From: a plasmid
Direction: 5' to 3' (one strand)
DNA: 64,000 nucleotides
Assembly: GCF_054482595.1 (NCBI RefSeq)
Contig: NZ_JBTHVH010000001.1
Under the pieces are notes generated by a model, which worked only from the letters and a program-made list of their open reading frames with translations, ran no database searches and was not told where the DNA came from. Each line of letters starts with the position of its first letter. The first letter of the stretch is position 1. Position numbers and translations under genes: made by a program. Of this stretch, positions 18,628-24,867 are shown piece by piece.

Positions 18628-18849
18628 ATGGCTACTATCCCTACCCCAACTCATCCTGAATTTATCTGGCGCTTTTACTCCTGCCAAAAACGTCACTATC
18701 ACTTCGTTATTGCACCGACAGAAGATGAGGCACGTTCTCAGCTTCCTGACGCCCCATGTATTTTCTCTGCCCGTTTTTCCACTGATTCACGCAATTCTCT
18801 CAGTTACTGGTGCCTCCCTGTTAACGCTTCTGCTCAGGAGGGACTATGA
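18628..18849 (+). CDS. icd: Icd-like protein 1 (73 aa)
   Basis: AAGGAGG ribosome-binding site. 73 aa, as for P1 Icd. The stop overlaps the ant start (ATGA). Confidence 0.7.
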   Translation: MATIPTPTHPEFIWRFYSCQKRHYHFVIAPTEDEARSQLPDAPCIFSARFSTDSRNSLSYWCLPVNASAQEGL

Positions 18850-19107
18850 GAACATCGTTAGTTACCCGTGAAGAGATGATCGAGGCAATTGAACAGCACA
18901 CTGCCTGTATCAGTACCAGGGATATACCAGGCGTTATTGCCAACTACTTCATGATCACCAAACAACTTTACCGGAGAAAGGACAAGAACGCGGTTCACCG
19001 TATCCTGTTGTCTGATATCCGCGAATACCTGCTCGAACAGGGTCATCTGAATTACGCAACCGTCGCAGCCGAATCACGCAAGGAGGCACACAGAATGAAA
19101 GCAACTA
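18655..19107. repeat. Inverted-repeat arm 1, left copy (partner 24415-24867)
   Basis: High identity by eye, including a perfect run of roughly 125 bp. Covers the icd 3' part and the first 87 ant codons. Confidence 0.85.
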
Positions 19108-19964
19108 ACGTTAAATCAGAAAAAATTCATGCACCTTCAGTTCAGGAATCGGAGCTGGTGGTTGTTCAGAATCAGTCTGATGAAATTCCCGTTCTGGAAT
19201 GGCAGGGAGTGCGTGTAGTGACAACCGAGACTCTTGCTAGAGGGTATGGGACAGAAACAATCCGTATTCGCCAAAATCATCATGAGAACAAAGTACGCTT
19301 TGTTGAAGGGAAGCACTTTTTCAAAGTTGAAGGAGAATCATTGCGCGAGTTGAAGCACAGAGTAGCTTTAAACTACTCTGTAAAAATTGCTCGCAATGTT
19401 CGCTCACTCACCCTCTGGACAGAACGCGGCGCAGCCCGCCACGCTAAAATGCTCGAAACCGATCAGGCATGGGCATTCTTTGAAAAACTGGAAGACAGCT
19501 ACTTCCGACAAAAAGAACAGCAACCGATCGCAATCCCCCAAACATTACCAGAAGCCCTACGCCTGGCTGCCGAACTGGCTGAACAAAAGCAGCTTCTGGA
19601 ACAGAAAGCCCACCAGCTAAATCAGCAGCTGGTGGCCGCCGCTCCTAAGGTCGATTTTGCCGACCGGGTATCAGTAGCTAAAGGGATCCTGATTGGGAAT
19701 TTTGCAAAGGTTGTTGGACTTAAGCAAAACGCGCTGTTTGTCTGGTTACGGGAGAACGGCATCCTGATAGCGTCCGGTGGACGTAAAAATGTGCCGTTCC
19801 AGCAGTACATCAACGCGGGGTATTTCACGGTGAAAGAAGTGGTGCTGGATGATGAAGATGGCTACCAGATACGGTTGACGCCTCAATTAACGGGTAAAGG
19901 CCAGCAGTGGTTGACGCGTAAACTGCTCGATGCTGGCTTGTTAAAACCGGTGGCGGCTGAATAA
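18846..19964 (+). CDS. ant: Ant-like antirepressor 1 (ORF6N-like centre, KilAC/ANT-like C-terminus)
   Basis: The centre (VVTTETLARGYGTE ... FVEGKHFFKVEGE ... LWTERGAARHAK) looks ORF6N-like. The C-terminus has NVPFQQYINAGYF (ANT type). An internal AAGGAGG plus ATG at 19095 matches the Ant2 arrangement. Confidence 0.75.
   Translation: MRTSLVTREEMIEAIEQHTACISTRDIPGVIANYFMITKQLYRRKDKNAVHRILLSDIREYLLEQGHLNYATVAAESRKEAHRMKATNVKSEKIHAPSVQESELVVVQNQSDEIPVLEWQGVRVVTTETLARGYGTETIRIRQNHHENKVRFVEGKHFFKVEGESLRELKHRVALNYSVKIARNVRSLTLWTERGAARHAKMLETDQAWAFFEKLEDSYFRQKEQQPIAIPQTLPEALRLAAELAEQKQLLEQKAHQLNQQLVAAAPKVDFADRVSVAKGILIGNFAKVVGLKQNALFVWLRENGILIASGGRKNVPFQQYINAGYFTVKEVVLDDEDGYQIRLTPQLTGKGQQWLTRKLLDAGLLKPVAAE
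19536..19964. repeat. Inverted-repeat arm 2, left copy (partner 23624-24052)
   Basis: The shared 142-aa Ant C-terminus. The DNA is clearly homologous with scattered mismatches. Confidence 0.8.
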
Positions 19965-19971
19965 TGGAAGA

Positions 19972-19993
19972 ATGCCCGGTTGATGCCGGGCAT
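19972..19993. terminator. Bidirectional hairpin between ant-1 and c1
   Basis: Stem ATGCCCGG/CCGGGCAT with a 6-nt loop. Confidence 0.6.
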
Positions 19994-19996
19994 AAT

Positions 19997-20848
19997 TTAT
20001 TGCGCGCTTTCGGGGTTGTCGTTTACTGGCTGCCCCTTCTTGGTTTTACGGCTGCGCGTAACTGATGCGGCTGACTTAACCTTTTTCTCTTCGCGAGTGA
20101 TGGCAATTTGTTTTTTTACATTTTCAATATCTGCCAGGCGATATATTTTTGCTTGCGGCCAGCGGTCGCAGATGATCGGTTCTATGGAGTCATAAAGGCT
20201 AAATTTTGCTTTTTCGAATTCACCGTTGATGATAATTCCATCACGGAGAGTTTCATCGCAGATAAACACGCCACACAGTGGCACATGGTAACTAACTGAT
20301 TTACCATCATTGTAGTTAGGGCTACTGGAAATGTAGTGGACGCGCAGCATTGTTTCGCTAAAGCCGTGTACGCGCATACGGAATTTTTCATCCTCCGGGT
20401 ACTGCCTCATTAGCTCTTTTGTTGCTTCCAGGTTCTCTATGTATTTCGCACTGTGCTCATTGATCCCCGCGCTTTTTTGGATGCGAATGTCCTTATCAAT
20501 CAGATGAATAATGCGGCCAGCGGTCATGTTGACGCTGTTCACAGCTTCTGTCTGATAAGTTGTAACCTTGCGCACACCGCGAAGGATGTTAGGCACTGGA
20601 TATAAAATAGTCTTTGGGATATTGAGGTCTGGGTACTGTTCCAGTTCCCGCGCCATTAAAGTCCATTTATCAATTTCAGCCTGAATGCTGTCTGTTTCTT
20701 TGAACGGTAGAACGACAACCGGGCGTACAGGACGACCGTCGCTGGCGGCATCAACGTGTTGGGCGCGTGCAACAGCTTTTTTTAGAAAGAGATCCCTGAA
20801 GCTGACGAACTCCTGGTACAGTTGTTCGCCGTAGACATAATTTATCAT
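19997..20848 (-). CDS. c1: C1 repressor
   Basis: 283 aa. MINYVYGEQLYQEFVSFRDLFLKK matches P1 C1 as recalled. Confidence 0.92.
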   Translation of the reverse strand: MINYVYGEQLYQEFVSFRDLFLKKAVARAQHVDAASDGRPVRPVVVLPFKETDSIQAEIDKWTLMARELEQYPDLNIPKTILYPVPNILRGVRKVTTYQTEAVNSVNMTAGRIIHLIDKDIRIQKSAGINEHSAKYIENLEATKELMRQYPEDEKFRMRVHGFSETMLRVHYISSSPNYNDGKSVSYHVPLCGVFICDETLRDGIIINGEFEKAKFSLYDSIEPIICDRWPQAKIYRLADIENVKKQIAITREEKKVKSAASVTRSRKTKKGQPVNDNPESAQ

Positions 20849-20942
20849 TGATCCTCCTCCAGAATTGACATGGTCAATAACGCCCGGCTGAGAAAACCGG
20901 TCATTACTGACCTATATTATAGAGGGATCAAACAAAAATAAT

Positions 20943-20959
20943 AGATTTATTAGTGCATT
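20943..20959 (-). promoter_or_regulatory. C1 operator between coi and c1
   Basis: The reverse complement is AATGCACTAATAAATCT. Confidence 0.65.
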
Positions 20960-23399: not shown

Positions 23400-23420
23400 A
23401 GCCTGGCAAGGAGCCAGGCT
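23400..23420 (+). terminator. Hairpin after cra
   Basis: Stem GCCTGGC/GCCAGGC with an A-run before it. Confidence 0.45.
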
Positions 23421-23526
23421 GCACAAAAGAGCGGGTTTGTATTCCGCATCCAATCAATCAAGAAGGAGTATAGCACACAGGTACTGACGTGAAAAAATAT
23501 GATTCGCGATAAACAAAATACCTATC

Positions 23527-23543
23527 ATTGCTCTAATTGAGCC
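23527..23543 (+). promoter_or_regulatory. C1 operator with no downstream gene (ref-promoter remnant candidate)
   Basis: ATTGCTCTAATTGAGCC. In P1 a C1/Bof-controlled ref promoter follows cra. Confidence 0.5.
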
Positions 23544-23597
23544 GCAGTTTTTGTCAACTACGAAGACGTGGCCATTACCTACTCCTTTGAAATCATT

Positions 23598-23621
23598 GGC
23601 GACCATTAGGCCGCCTTTTTT
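23598..23621 (+). terminator. Rho-independent terminator
   Basis: Stem GGCGACC/GGCCGCC (one G:U pair) followed by a T6 run. Confidence 0.55.
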
Positions 23622-23623
23622 AA

Positions 23624-24052
23624 TCATTCAGCCGCCACCGGTTTTAACAAGCCAGCATCAAGTAGCTTGCGAGTCAACCACTGCTGGCCTTTACCCGTTA
23701 ATTGGGGCGTCAGCCGTATCTGGTAGCCATTTTCATCATCCAGCACCACTTCTTTCACCGTGAAATACCCGGCGTTGATGTACTGTTGGCGCGGTACGTT
23801 TTTGCGCGCACCAAAAGCCATGAGAATGCCGTTCTGGCGCAACCATGAGAAAAGGGCGTTTTGCTTCAGTCCAACGACCTTTGCAAAGTTCCCGATCAGG
23901 ATTCCATTAGCCACTGATACCCGAACGGCAAAATCGACTTTAGGGGCTGCGGCCACCAGCTGCTGATTTAGCTGGTGGGCTTTCTGTTCCAGAAGTTGCT
24001 TTTGTTCAGCCAGCTCGGCAGCCAGGCGCAGAGCTTCGGGGAGTGTTTGGGG
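23624..24052. repeat. Inverted-repeat arm 2, right copy
   Basis: Partner of 19536-19964. Confidence 0.8.
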
Positions 24053-24676
24053 GAGCACTGGAGAAGCAGTGTTAGCCTGCTGCAATTCCTCCAGTTTGTC
24101 GATCAGCGAACGGCGGACCGCTTTTGACTCGCGCGCGGCAACTCGCAGGGCTTGTTTGTAGGTCATGGAGATAGTTTCAGATGTTGTGTTGTTTAATTTT
24201 TGCACTACGAAAATTTCGTAGTACTCACCATCCAGTTCATCCTTAACTCTGGCAATAAAATCATTATTGCGAACTGGTTTTTCGCTGCATAATTTCCGCG
24301 CTTCATTGACCATCTTCAACAATGTTTGGCTGTCTATTGTGTCGCCGCTGTTGGGGATAACATTCACGGCTGGTGCAGTTGTTCCCAAAGACTTCGTAAC
24401 TACAGCGTCTGGTTTGCTTGCTTTCATTCTGTGTGCCTCCTTGCGTGTTTCGGCTGCGACGGTTGCGTAATTCAGATGCCCCTGTTCGAGCAGGTATTCA
24501 CGGATATCGGTTAGCAGAATGCGGTGAACCGCGTGTTTGTCCTTTCTCCGGTAAAGTTGTTTGGTGATCATGAAGTAGTTGGCAATAACGCCTGGTATAT
24601 CCCTGGTACTGATACAGGCAGTGTGCTGTTCAATTGCCTCGATCATCTCTTCACGGGTGACTAATGACGTTCTCAT
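23624..24676 (-). CDS. ant: Ant-like antirepressor 2 (different central domain)
   Basis: The N-terminal 86 aa and C-terminal 142 aa are near-identical to Ant-1, but the centre is unrelated. The internal SD plus ATG is retained at 24427. Confidence 0.75.
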   Translation of the reverse strand: MRTSLVTREEMIEAIEQHTACISTRDIPGVIANYFMITKQLYRRKDKHAVHRILLTDIREYLLEQGHLNYATVAAETRKEAHRMKASKPDAVVTKSLGTTAPAVNVIPNSGDTIDSQTLLKMVNEARKLCSEKPVRNNDFIARVKDELDGEYYEIFVVQKLNNTTSETISMTYKQALRVAARESKAVRRSLIDKLEELQQANTASPVLPQTLPEALRLAAELAEQKQLLEQKAHQLNQQLVAAAPKVDFAVRVSVANGILIGNFAKVVGLKQNALFSWLRQNGILMAFGARKNVPRQQYINAGYFTVKEVVLDDENGYQIRLTPQLTGKGQQWLTRKLLDAGLLKPVAAE

Positions 24677-24867
24677 AGTCCCTCCTGAGCAGAAGCGTTA
24701 ACAGGGAGGCACCAGTAACTGAGAGAATTGCGCAAATCGGTAGAAAAGCGGGCAGAGAAAATACAGGGAGCATCCGGAAGCTGAGAACGTGCCTCATCTT
24801 CTGTTGGTGCGATAACGAAGTGATAGTGACGTTTCTGGCAGGAGTAAAAGCGCCAGATAAATTCAGG
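24415..24867. repeat. Inverted-repeat arm 1, right copy
   Basis: Partner of 18655-19107. Coordinates map as x to 43522-x. Confidence 0.85.

What the first reader, a model, noticed from the sequence alone, without database searches (positions are those of the whole stretch)
18655..24867. Inverted repeats around the immunity/lox core could invert about 5 kb by homologous recombination
Arm 1 is 18655-19107 paired with 24867-24415. It includes a perfect run of roughly 125 bp by eye. Arm 2 is 19536-19964 paired with 24052-23624. Both arm pairs are inverted relative to each other. Recombination between them would flip c1, coi, loxP, cre and cra relative to pacAB and darB. It would also recombine the Ant central domains with the other module's c4/icd front end, re-pairing antisense lock and antirepressor.
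Basis: inference. Interest (0 to 1): 0.45.

Follow-up and report, generated by a model that had tools for sequence, protein, structure and literature searches.

The report
Two inverted antirepressor cassettes flanking loxP
The inverted repeats are real, but they are the conserved parts of two separate antisense-RNA/antirepressor immunity cassettes that sit in opposite orientation on either side of the repressor-loxP-cre core of a P1-like phage-plasmid, and no sequenced relative shows that core flipped.

Summary
Arm pair I1 (18655-19104 / 24867-24418) is 450 nt at 94.2% identity, ungapped, with a 122-bp perfect run. Arm pair I2 (19534-19975 / 24054-23613) is 442 nt at 87.3%.

The arms are the shared parts of two complete immI-type cassettes. 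Each has a C1 operator-like site, a1/b1 targets, a C4 antisense RNA, a2/b2 targets, icd and ant. They are inserted in opposite orientation next to pacB and next to c8. I1 covers the 3' part of icd plus the Ant1-specific N-terminus, up to an Ant2-like internal start. I2 covers the KilAC domain. The C4 lock regions and the Ant central domains are unrelated between the two cassettes.

The inversion geometry is correct, and the perfect blocks are long enough for RecA. However, a synthetic inversion junction was found in 0 of 784 PLSDB and 0 of 950 E. coli RefSeq matching records. The native order is held by 44 and 33 records respectively. All 83 further fetched loci also keep the native order.

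Near-identical Ant centres (98-99.8%) do sit in the left slot of some plasmids and the right slot of others. The arms therefore act as linkers for patch exchange without flipping the core. This is an ordinary mosaic of paralogous cassettes, not a switch.

The parts
16804..18288 (+). pacB, the left fixed flank
   Evidence: It is 98% identical to phiW39 pacA/pacB up to window 18290. It is annotated as terminase/pacB in relatives.
18291..19982 (+). Left immI-type cassette, inserted in the 24-bp gap between pacB and c1
   Evidence: phiW39 homology stops at 18290 and resumes at 19983. A cassette is present at this slot in many relatives and absent from P1, P7 and phiW39.
18292..18308 (+). C1 operator-like site of the left cassette (TTTGCTCTAATAAATTG)
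   Evidence: Two mismatches to the 17-bp C1 operator consensus, which I supplied from memory. It aligns with the annotated Op(c4) of P7. Binding was not tested.
18383..18460 (+). Leader of the left cassette, holding target a1 (18409-18415) and b1 (18425-18432). Rfam scores it as isrK.
   Evidence: Rfam RF01394 at 60 bits. The a1 and b1 sites are complementary to the C4 loops.
18486..18573 (+). Left C4 antisense RNA, with b' CCTTGGAC at 18530-18537 and a' AGGCCAA at 18545-18551
   Evidence: Rfam RF01695 at 75.9 bits, E 4.7e-13. Loop-to-target complementarity was checked.
18578..18616 (+). Left a2 (18578-18584) and b2 (18609-18616) targets, just before the icd start
18628..18849 (+). Left icd (73 aa). 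Its stop overlaps the ant start.
   Evidence: Annotated as an Icd-like protein in the 99.5% identical plasmid.
18846..19964 (+). Left ant (372 aa): shared N-terminus, then ORF6N (116-202), then KilAC (260-361). An Ant2-like RBS plus in-frame ATG lies at 19096.
   Evidence: Pfam, sequence, BLASTP against the right Ant.
18655..19104 (+). Arm I1, left copy: 3' two-thirds of icd plus ant codons 1-86, ending at the Ant2-like start
19105..19533 (+). Left Ant central segment (429 bp, ORF6N type), not alignable to the right centre
   Evidence: A-type versus B-type centres align at under 7%.
19534..19975 (+). Arm I2, left copy: the KilAC domain of ant, to just past the stop codon
19972..19993 (+). GC-rich hairpin between the convergent ant and c1 genes, possibly a terminator
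   Evidence: Consensus scan only.
19997..20848 (-). c1 repressor
20959..21168 (-). coi (69 aa)
   Evidence: It aligns with the annotated coi of phiW39.
21550..21583 (+). loxP, an exact 34-bp match and the only copy in the window
21773..21994 (+). cra (73 aa)
22002..23033 (+). cre
   Evidence: Pfam Phage_integrase. 98.8% identical to P1 X03453.
23084..23395 (+). c8 (103 aa, lysogeny establishment)
23622..25260 (-). Right immI-type cassette, inserted between c8 and the ref position
   Evidence: phiW39 homology ends at 23621. 82.9% identical to the P1 c4-ant1/2 record X15639. The 25260 end is approximate, set just outside a promoter-like site at 25263-25234.
23613..24054 (-). Arm I2, right copy (KilAC domain)
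24055..24417 (-). Right Ant central segment (363 bp), with no Pfam domain. About 90% identical over 264 bp to antirepressor genes of Stx2 phages.
24418..24867 (-). Arm I1, right copy
23624..24676 (-). Right ant (350 aa), with KilAC at 238-339 and an Ant2-like in-frame ATG at 24426
24673..24894 (-). Right icd (73 aa)
24906..24941 (-). Right a2 (24941-24935 TTAGCAG) and b2 (24912-24906 GTACATG)
24942..25027 (-). Right C4 antisense RNA, with b' CATGTAC at 24984-24978 and a' CTGCTAA at 24971-24965
   Evidence: Rfam RF01695 at 71.7 bits..
25096..25148 (-). Right a1/b1 target leader
   Evidence: Rfam RF03163 c4-a1b1 at 55.5 bits..
25212..25228 (-). C1 operator-like site of the right cassette (ATTGCTCTAATAGATTT)
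   Evidence: One mismatch to the consensus. Alignment.
25371..26171 (+). MBL-fold hydrolase gene that replaces most of ref. It is the right fixed flank, together with mat (26435-27130) and darB (27889-34656, minus strand).
   Evidence: Pfam, annotation, phiW39 comparison, ORFs.

Best explanation
The window comes from a P1-like phage-plasmid that is 99.5% identical in this region to E. coli pYZMc17-1_100k. The two arm pairs are the conserved portions of two complete, separately regulated immI-type cassettes.

Each cassette has a C1 operator-like site, a leader with a1/b1 targets, a C4 antisense RNA, a2/b2 targets at the icd ribosome site, icd, and an ant gene with an Ant2-like internal start. 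One cassette fills the pacB-c1 gap and reads rightward. The other lies after c8 and reads leftward. Together they bracket c1-coi-loxP-cra-cre-c8 as an inverted repeat.

Arm I1 is the 3' part of icd plus the Ant1-specific N-terminus. Arm I2 is the KilAC domain. Between and outside the arms lie the parts that differ. The C4 locks have different recognition loops with matching changes in their own targets. The Ant central domains are unrelated: ORF6N on the left, a different domain on the right.

Inferred function, by analogy with P1/P7 immI: each C4 RNA silences its own icd-ant operon. It would also silence the operon of any incoming phage carrying the same lock. An unmatched Ant can inactivate C1. 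Several orthogonal cassettes would therefore widen both immunity and immunity bypass.

The arms behave in evolution as homology linkers. Ant centres are swapped between cassettes by two exchanges or by gene conversion, which leaves the core orientation unchanged. A single RecA-dependent crossover would invert the core and is physically possible. It is rare and not fixed, and it is not a regulated switch.
For: The arms are real.

Each side has a full cassette. There are two Rfam C4 hits plus c4-a1b1 and isrK leader hits. Operator-like sites and loop-target complementarity are present for both cassettes, with little cross-complementarity between them. Both have icd and ant ORFs with overlapping stop and start. 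Both have a KilAC domain, and only the left has ORF6N. An identical AAGGAGG-N8-ATG Ant2-like start sits at the distal edge of I1 in both copies.

The cassettes are discrete insertions relative to phiW39. Relatives carry none, the left only, the right only, both, or a further cassette after mat. Every cassette examined has its own C4.

This is not a recent inverted duplication. The lock regions are at most 62% identical, and the A-type and B-type centres align at under 7%.

The lock type is slot-specific, while the centre alleles move between slots. Left-slot centres of L010, L013 and L014 are 98.3-99.5% identical to right-slot centres of L011 and L012. The left-slot centre of L007 is 98.3-99.8% identical to right-slot centres of L013 and L014. 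I1 alleles are likewise shared across slots, for example L007 left versus L014 right at 99.6%.

The core is never inverted.
Against: No experiment or read-level data were available. Function of the extra C4 RNAs and Ant proteins rests on homology with P1/P7 immI.

In several relatives the left ant is a pseudogene: internal stop in L009 and L020, frameshift in L011. The Ant part of a cassette is therefore not always maintained.

The right cassette shares its 'a' recognition element with the P7-type canonical cassette of the near-identical plasmid. The locks may not be fully orthogonal.

The cross-slot sharing of centres could come from exchange between co-resident plasmids rather than within one molecule. 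The data do not distinguish these.

The databases hold consensus assemblies, and many records are related. Absence of the inverted isomer there does not measure its frequency in a culture.
Confidence: 0.8

Rival explanations
1. The 5.3-kb core is a standing invertible segment. RecA-dependent crossover in I1 or I2 flips it often enough that both isomers coexist in cultures at 1% or more. Each flip re-pairs the c4/icd front ends with the other Ant body.
For: The arms are 450 and 442 nt with perfect blocks of 122, 64 and 47 bp. The chimeric ant genes would stay in frame. Both gene pairs at the arm ends remain convergent after a flip, so nothing obvious is broken. Cross-slot sharing of Ant centres shows that the arms do recombine over evolutionary time.
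Against: The inversion junction is absent from 784 PLSDB and 950 E. coli RefSeq matching records. The native order occurs in 44 and 33 records. All 15 fetched relatives that carry both cassettes, and all 83 IMG/VR and GTDB loci, are in the native orientation, including four with 1.3-kb continuous arms. There is no within-genome homogenisation of the arms: I1 left-versus-right identity is 94.7% within a genome and 94.6% between genomes. Divergence of 6-13% is known to reduce RecA exchange strongly in mismatch-repair-proficient E. coli (established knowledge). The P1 recombination-enhancement gene ref is truncated here.
Confidence: 0.1
2. The repeat arose as a recent inverted duplication of one cassette, for example by a replication or assembly error, and carries no separate function.
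For: I1 is 94% identical with a 122-bp perfect run.
Against: The C4/leader regions of the two cassettes are at most 62% identical and use different recognition loops. The Ant centres are non-homologous, with different Pfam content. The same two-cassette structure is found in dozens of independently sequenced complete plasmids from several countries and three Escherichia species.
Confidence: 0.03
3. It is a programmed site-specific inversion, like the Cin/cix C segment of P1 or a shufflon, with the crossover sites inside the arms.
For: A tyrosine recombinase gene (cre) lies inside the segment.
Against: Cre acts on loxP, and there is a single loxP with no second site within 3 mismatches in the window. 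The arms are coding homology of cassette genes, not short recombinase sites at segment ends. No relative shows the alternative orientation.
Confidence: 0.02

Closest known systems
immI operon of phages P1 and P7 (Op51-c4-icd-ant1/ant2)
   Same: The order of parts is the same: a C1 operator-like site, a1/b1, C4 RNA (Rfam RF01695), a2/b2 at the icd start, icd overlapping ant, and an in-frame Ant2-like start. The right cassette is 82.9% identical to P1 X15639 over 1.5 kb.
   Different: Both cassettes sit beside immC/loxP rather than next to kilA-repL. The C4 recognition loops differ from both P1 and P7. The left cassette differs in both a and b. The right cassette has the P7-type a with a new b (GTACATG). 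The I1 region is only about 75% identical to P1, P7 and the canonical cassette, against 94% between the two extra cassettes. The left Ant has an ORF6N centre.
Extra ant / icd-ant insertions already noted in P1-like plasmids (RCS47 and pTZ20_1P between pacB and c1; pSvP1 RD-1)
   Same: These are the same two slots. Venturini et al. [quoted passage not shown] RCS47)'. They also report icd-ant1/2 homologues in the region after cre in pSvP1. RCS47 matches the left part of the query.
   Different: That paper treats them as separate insertions. In the passages retrieved I found no discussion of their inverted-repeat relation, their C4 locks, or allele exchange between slots.
P1 C-segment inversion (Cin recombinase and cix sites)
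   Same: It is a segment of a P1-type genome bounded by inverted repeats.
   Different: The C segment is flipped by a dedicated serine recombinase at short cix sites, and both orientations are found (established knowledge; summarised in PMC6906374). Here there is no dedicated recombinase or site pair, and only one orientation is seen.
IsrK / C4-type antisense units upstream of antirepressor genes in lambdoid prophages (Gifsy-1, Stx phages)
   Same: The left cassette leader scores as Rfam isrK. Part of the right Ant centre is about 90% identical to Stx2-phage antirepressor genes.
   Different: Those units sit in integrated lambdoid prophages and control other targets (from my own knowledge, not tested here). 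In this window the units are wired to a P1 C1 operator-like site.

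Membership tests
P1/P7 immI-type cassette | C4 antisense RNA gene upstream of icd | tested here: met
   Rfam RF01695 hits at 18486-18573 (+, 75.9 bits) and 25027-24942 (-, 71.7 bits); the gathering score is 45.
P1/P7 immI-type cassette | Two pairs of targets (a1/b1 upstream, a2/b2 at the icd ribosome site) complementary to the C4 loops a' and b' | tested here: met
   Left: a1 is fully complementary, and b1, b2 and a2 each pair with one G-U. Right: fully complementary at all four sites. Cross-pairing between cassettes is poor. Rfam c4-a1b1 hits the right leader.
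P1/P7 immI-type cassette | icd ORF whose stop overlaps the ant start | tested here: met
   18628-18849 / 18846-19964 and 24894-24673 / 24676-23624.
P1/P7 immI-type cassette | Antirepressor made as Ant1 and an in-frame shorter Ant2 | tested here: inconclusive
   An AAGGAGG ribosome site plus in-frame ATG is present at codon 84 in both copies, as in P1, where ant2 starts 83 codons into ant1. Protein products were not testable.
P1/P7 immI-type cassette | C1-controlled operator upstream of c4 | tested here: inconclusive
   17-bp matches with 2 mismatches (18292-18308) and 1 mismatch (25228-25212) to the operator consensus. They align with the annotated Op(c4) of P7. C1 binding was not testable.
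P1/P7 immI-type cassette | Ant inactivates the C1 repressor | not testable with these tools
   Only homology is available: the KilAC domain and 65% identity between the two Ants.
P1/P7 immI locus (canonical position) | Located next to kilA-repL | tested here: not met
   Both cassettes flank immC/loxP. The canonical cassette of the near-identical plasmid lies outside the window, at record positions 517-1778.
Programmed invertible DNA segment (Cin/cix, Hin/hix, shufflon type) | Dedicated recombinase with a pair of inverted crossover sites at the segment ends | tested here: not met
   The only recombinase inside the segment is Cre, and there is a single loxP with no second site within 3 mismatches.
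Programmed invertible DNA segment (Cin/cix, Hin/hix, shufflon type) | Both orientations found among isolates or molecules | tested here: not met
   0 of 784 and 0 of 950 records hold the inversion junction. All fetched loci are in the native orientation. Read-level heterogeneity was not testable.
Substrate for RecA-dependent inversion | Inverted homology with perfect blocks longer than the minimal processing segment (about 25 bp) | tested here: met
   Perfect blocks of 122, 64, 32, 30 and 30 bp in I1, and 47, 39, 34 and 32 bp in I2. The threshold is taken from established knowledge.

The most novel reading that the evidence does not exclude
P1-like phage-plasmids carry an array of up to four immI-type cassettes at fixed slots: canonical, pacB-c1, after c8, and after mat. 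Each slot keeps its own orthogonal C4 antisense lock. The conserved I1 and I2 blocks serve as built-in linkers that shuffle Ant effector domains between locks. This would be a cassette system that diversifies superinfection immunity and immunity bypass in competition between related phage-plasmids. Occasional single crossovers that invert the immC-lox-cre core would be a tolerated by-product.
Probability: 0.3. Interest if true: 0.5.

Novelty: new member of a known kind. Interest (0 to 1): 0.25.

Why it matters
For the claim as made, the result is deflationary. The repeat is ordinary paralogy between two immunity cassettes, and there is no sign that the P1 immunity/lox core flips. Assemblies and annotations of this region need no special treatment beyond care with repeat-induced contig breaks.

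The modestly useful by-product concerns the cassettes themselves. This plasmid lineage carries extra C4/icd/ant units with recognition loops unlike those of P1 or P7, and their Ant centres are exchanged between slots in nature. If these units are functional, they would help explain heteroimmunity patterns and coexistence or exclusion among the many P1-like phage-plasmids that spread resistance genes in Enterobacteriaceae. They would also supply new orthogonal antisense lock and key pairs.

Tried and rejected
1. Concerted evolution. I asked whether the left and right arms of one genome are more alike than arms from different genomes, which would indicate ongoing intramolecular conversion. They are not: I1 is 94.7% versus 94.6%, and I2 is 93.6% versus 93.5%.

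2. Synthetic inversion junction. I built 17600-19104 joined to the reverse complement of 22700-24417 and searched PLSDB and complete E. coli genomes. No record covered 80% or more. The best partial hits covering query 1-2297 were plasmids with only a left cassette that carries a right-type (P1-like) Ant centre, followed by c1 in the native orientation. An example is pLH85-a-A. These are mosaics, not inversions.

3. Wider census through Cre. 80 IMG/VR loci and 3 GTDB loci were classified by order and strand of pacB, c1, cre, cra, mat and the arms. None is inverted. The more distant GTDB hits (Pantoea at 65% and below) were not analysed further.

4. Recent inverted duplication, and site-specific inversion. 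Both were rejected on sequence grounds.

5. Functional reason for a fixed orientation. Both arm ends face convergent genes with hairpins before and after a flip, so I found no obvious selective barrier. The absence of the isomer is better explained by rarity.

6. Literature. Searches and reads found the extra ant and icd-ant insertions mentioned, but nothing on inversion or on the C4 lock types. One search failed on a term that was too short.

7. Tools not used. The large protein-homology, structure-prediction and fold-search tools would not bear on whether the segment inverts.

Full report
**Observation**

The repeat finder on 17000-26500 returns exactly two inverted pairs:
- I1: 18655-19104 / 24418-24867, 450 nt, 94%.
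- I2: 19534-19975 / 23613-24054, 442 nt, 87%.

They are also the only inverted repeats of 80 nt or more in the whole window. An ungapped comparison gives these figures:

| Arm pair | Identity | Longest perfect runs |
|---|---|---|
| I1 | 424/450 (94.2%) | 122 (18864-18985 / 24658-24537), 64, 32, 30, 30 bp |
| I2 | 386/442 (87.3%) | 47 bp |

The blastn E-values are 2.7e-171 and 2.5e-137. With gaps, homology continues outward from I1 to 18458 / 25058 at 83.5%.

**What the region is**

The 8.5-kb region is 99.5% identical to E. coli plasmid pYZMc17-1_100k. It matches P1, P7, phiW39, SJ46 and RCS47 over pacB, c1, coi, cre and cra. So the window is a P1-like phage-plasmid.

Comparison with the annotated phiW39 immC record fixes the gene names: pacA, pacB, c1, coi, imcB/A, lox, cra (73 aa, before cre), cre, c8 (103 aa, after cre) and ref. 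The same comparison fixes the insertion boundaries:
- phiW39 homology ends at 18290 and resumes at 19983. The left insertion (18291-19982) sits in what is a 24-bp pacB-c1 gap in phiW39.
- Homology then runs to 23621 and resumes only at 26186. The right insertion (23622-26185) holds the second cassette plus an MBL-fold gene that replaces most of ref.

loxP is exact and single at 21550-21583.

**Anatomy of the two insertions**

Rfam finds a C4 antisense RNA on each side, at 18486-18573 (+) and 25027-24942 (-). It also finds a c4-a1b1 leader on the right and an isrK-type leader on the left.

I aligned both leaders with the P1 and P7 immI regions and with the canonical cassette of pYZMc17-1. A direct complementarity check followed. 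Both show that each cassette is complete: a C1 operator-like 17-mer (18292-18308; 25228-25212), a1/b1, C4 with loops b' and a', a2/b2 at the icd ribosome site, icd, and ant overlapping the icd stop.

The recognition elements differ between cassettes:

| Cassette | a element | b element |
|---|---|---|
| P1 | TTGACAG | GTTAGTG |
| P7 and the canonical pYZMc17-1 cassette | TTAGCAG | GATTGTG |
| Right cassette | TTAGCAG (P7-type) | GTACATG (new, changed together in b1, b' and b2) |
| Left cassette | TTGGCCT / TTGGTCT | GTCTAAGG |

The left cassette's C4 loops match its own targets and not the right cassette's targets.

The two Ant proteins are 65% identical overall. They are near-identical over residues 1-86 and over the last ~140 residues, and unrelated between these. 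Pfam finds KilAC in both and an ORF6N domain only in the left centre. Both copies carry the same AAGGAGG-N8-ATG, in frame at codon 84, right at the distal edge of I1. This corresponds to the Ant2 start of P1.

So I1 is the 3' part of icd plus the Ant1-specific N-terminus. I2 is the KilAC domain. The arms are coding homology between two paralogous cassettes.

**Not a recent duplication**

The lock/leader regions of the two slots are at most 62% identical, and the A-type and B-type centres align at under 7%. The I1 block of the two extra cassettes is 94% identical to each other but only about 75% identical to P1, P7 and the canonical cassette.

The near-identical plasmid carries a third cassette, of P7 type, at the canonical position next to the lytic replicon. 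That position is outside this window. Some relatives carry yet another cassette after mat.

Relatives exist with no extra cassette (P1, P7, phiW39), the left only (RCS47, pLH85-a-A), the right only (for example NZ_CP086223), or both.

**Does the core invert?**

A crossover in I1 or I2 would flip c1-coi-loxP-cra-cre-c8 relative to pacAB and darB. A crossover in I1 would join each c4/icd front end to the other Ant body, in frame. The perfect blocks exceed the minimal homology needed by RecA (established knowledge).

I tested the prediction against natural diversity:
- The native 8.5-kb arrangement is covered at 80% or more by 44 PLSDB records and 33 complete E. coli genomes.
- A synthetic junction expected after inversion (pacB, left c4/icd, I1, right Ant body, c8 and cre reversed) is covered at 80% or more by 0 of 784 and 0 of 950 matching records. 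The query design would also detect an I2 crossover.
- Thirteen two-cassette relatives fetched one by one all show pacB(+), icd-ant(+), c1(-), coi(-), cra-cre-c8(+), ant-icd(-). They come from E. coli, E. albertii and E. fergusonii, from pig, cattle, human, bird and water sources.
- Two further relatives that carry an additional cassette keep the same order.
- Four of these relatives have arms fused into one 1.3-kb repeat at 90-94% identity, and they still have the native orientation.
- A further 83 loci found through Cre in IMG/VR and GTDB all keep pacB upstream of c1 and cre in the native sense.

Three short IMG/VR contigs of 5.2-5.4 kb appear to be bounded by the I2 arms. This shows that short-read assemblies break at the repeat and carry no orientation information.

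**Do the arms recombine at all?**

There is no within-genome homogenisation. I1 left-versus-right identity is 94.7% within a genome and 94.6% between genomes. For I2 the figures are 93.6% and 93.5%.

However, alleles cross between the oppositely oriented slots in different plasmids. The lock type is fixed per slot. Centre types are not. One C-type centre allele sits in the left slot of L010, L013 and L014 and in the right slot of L011 and L012, at 98.3-99.5% identity. Another sits in the left slot of L007 and the right slot of L013 and L014, at 98.3-99.8%. I1 alleles are likewise shared; for example L007 left versus L014 right is 99.6%.

Moving a centre between inverted slots while keeping the flanks needs exchanges in both I1 and I2, or conversion across them. 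These could occur within one molecule or between co-resident plasmids. It arises as patch exchange and leaves the core orientation untouched.

**Mechanism: shown and inferred**

Shown here:
- the cassette structure;
- the distinct locks with matching targets;
- the domain mosaic of Ant;
- the insertion boundaries;
- the fixed core orientation across relatives;
- the cross-slot allele sharing.

Inferred from P1/P7 immI biology (established knowledge of C4, icd, ant and heteroimmunity; summarised in PMC6906374):
- Each C4 silences its own icd-ant operon, and that of an incoming phage carrying the same lock.
- An Ant whose lock is unmatched in the recipient inactivates C1.
- Several cassettes would therefore broaden both immunity and immunity bypass.

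Caveats:
- The left ant is a pseudogene in some relatives.
- The right and canonical locks share element a.

**Comparison with what is known**

The cassettes meet the sequence-level features of the immI family. They are not at the canonical locus and have new lock sequences.

The extra ant between pacB and c1, and the icd-ant homologues after cre, have been noted before (PMC6906374). In the passages retrieved I found no discussion of their inverted relation, their locks or their exchange.

The region does not meet the defining features of a programmed invertible segment. There is no recombinase/site pair and no second orientation.

**Verdict**

The feature is a new member of a known kind, namely additional immI-type cassettes. 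Interest is low to moderate.

Noticed in passing
window 61319-62659 and 62660-64000: A perfect 1341-bp tandem duplication that runs exactly to the end of the window, covering tubB and parts of its neighbours (ORFs 61968-62579 and 63309-63920 are both 203 aa). It could be a real duplication in the tail-tube genes or an assembly artefact. The near-identical plasmid has a single copy of each gene in its annotation.
   Followed up: partly
L003 517-2032 (NZ_CP123256.1), outside the window: The 99.5% identical plasmid carries a third icd-ant cassette with a P7-type C4 at the canonical immI position. It is in the same orientation as the left cassette and inverted relative to the right one. Homologous exchange with it could delete or invert more than 40 kb.
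   Followed up: partly
L020 9663-11253 and L021 10173-11757: Some relatives have a further complete C4-icd-ant cassette after mat, divergent from the right cassette. The Icd protein is identical in both (WP_000245705.1). That makes up to three cassettes within about 10 kb.
   Followed up: partly
L009 1631-2749, L011 1646-2763, L020 1825-2943, L017 left slot: The left-slot ant is a pseudogene (internal stop or frameshift) or unannotated in several relatives, while its icd is still annotated intact (a C4 upstream was confirmed only for L020). This hints that the lock part may be kept even when the antirepressor is lost.
   Followed up: no
window 18383-18460: The leader of the left cassette, which holds its a1/b1 targets, scores as Rfam isrK (60 bits) rather than c4-a1b1. 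This links the P1-plasmid cassette to the IsrK-type units of lambdoid prophages.
   Followed up: no
window 25371-26337: An MBL-fold hydrolase gene replaces most of the recombination-enhancement gene ref. Only a 3' remnant of ref remains, at 26186-26337.
   Followed up: partly
window 27130-27890, against L001 12680-13984 and L002 16475-17602: The gap between mat and the genes before darB is a variable spot. The near-identical plasmid has a SIR2-family gene there and pLH85-a-A has a RelA/SpoT-domain gene. The window has only a 79-aa ORF.
   Followed up: no
L069, L074, L081 (IMG/VR contigs of 5221-5373 bp): These whole contigs are about the length of the segment between the arms. Two loci in the census begin and end in I2 copies, and they are most likely among these three, though the per-locus match was not printed. 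They look like short-read assembly breaks at the inverted repeat, so such assemblies cannot report the orientation.
   Followed up: partly
window 50162-52294: A family of seven imperfect direct repeats with 120-nt spacing (60-93% identity), probably a repetitive coding region in the tail-fibre area. It was not examined.
   Followed up: no
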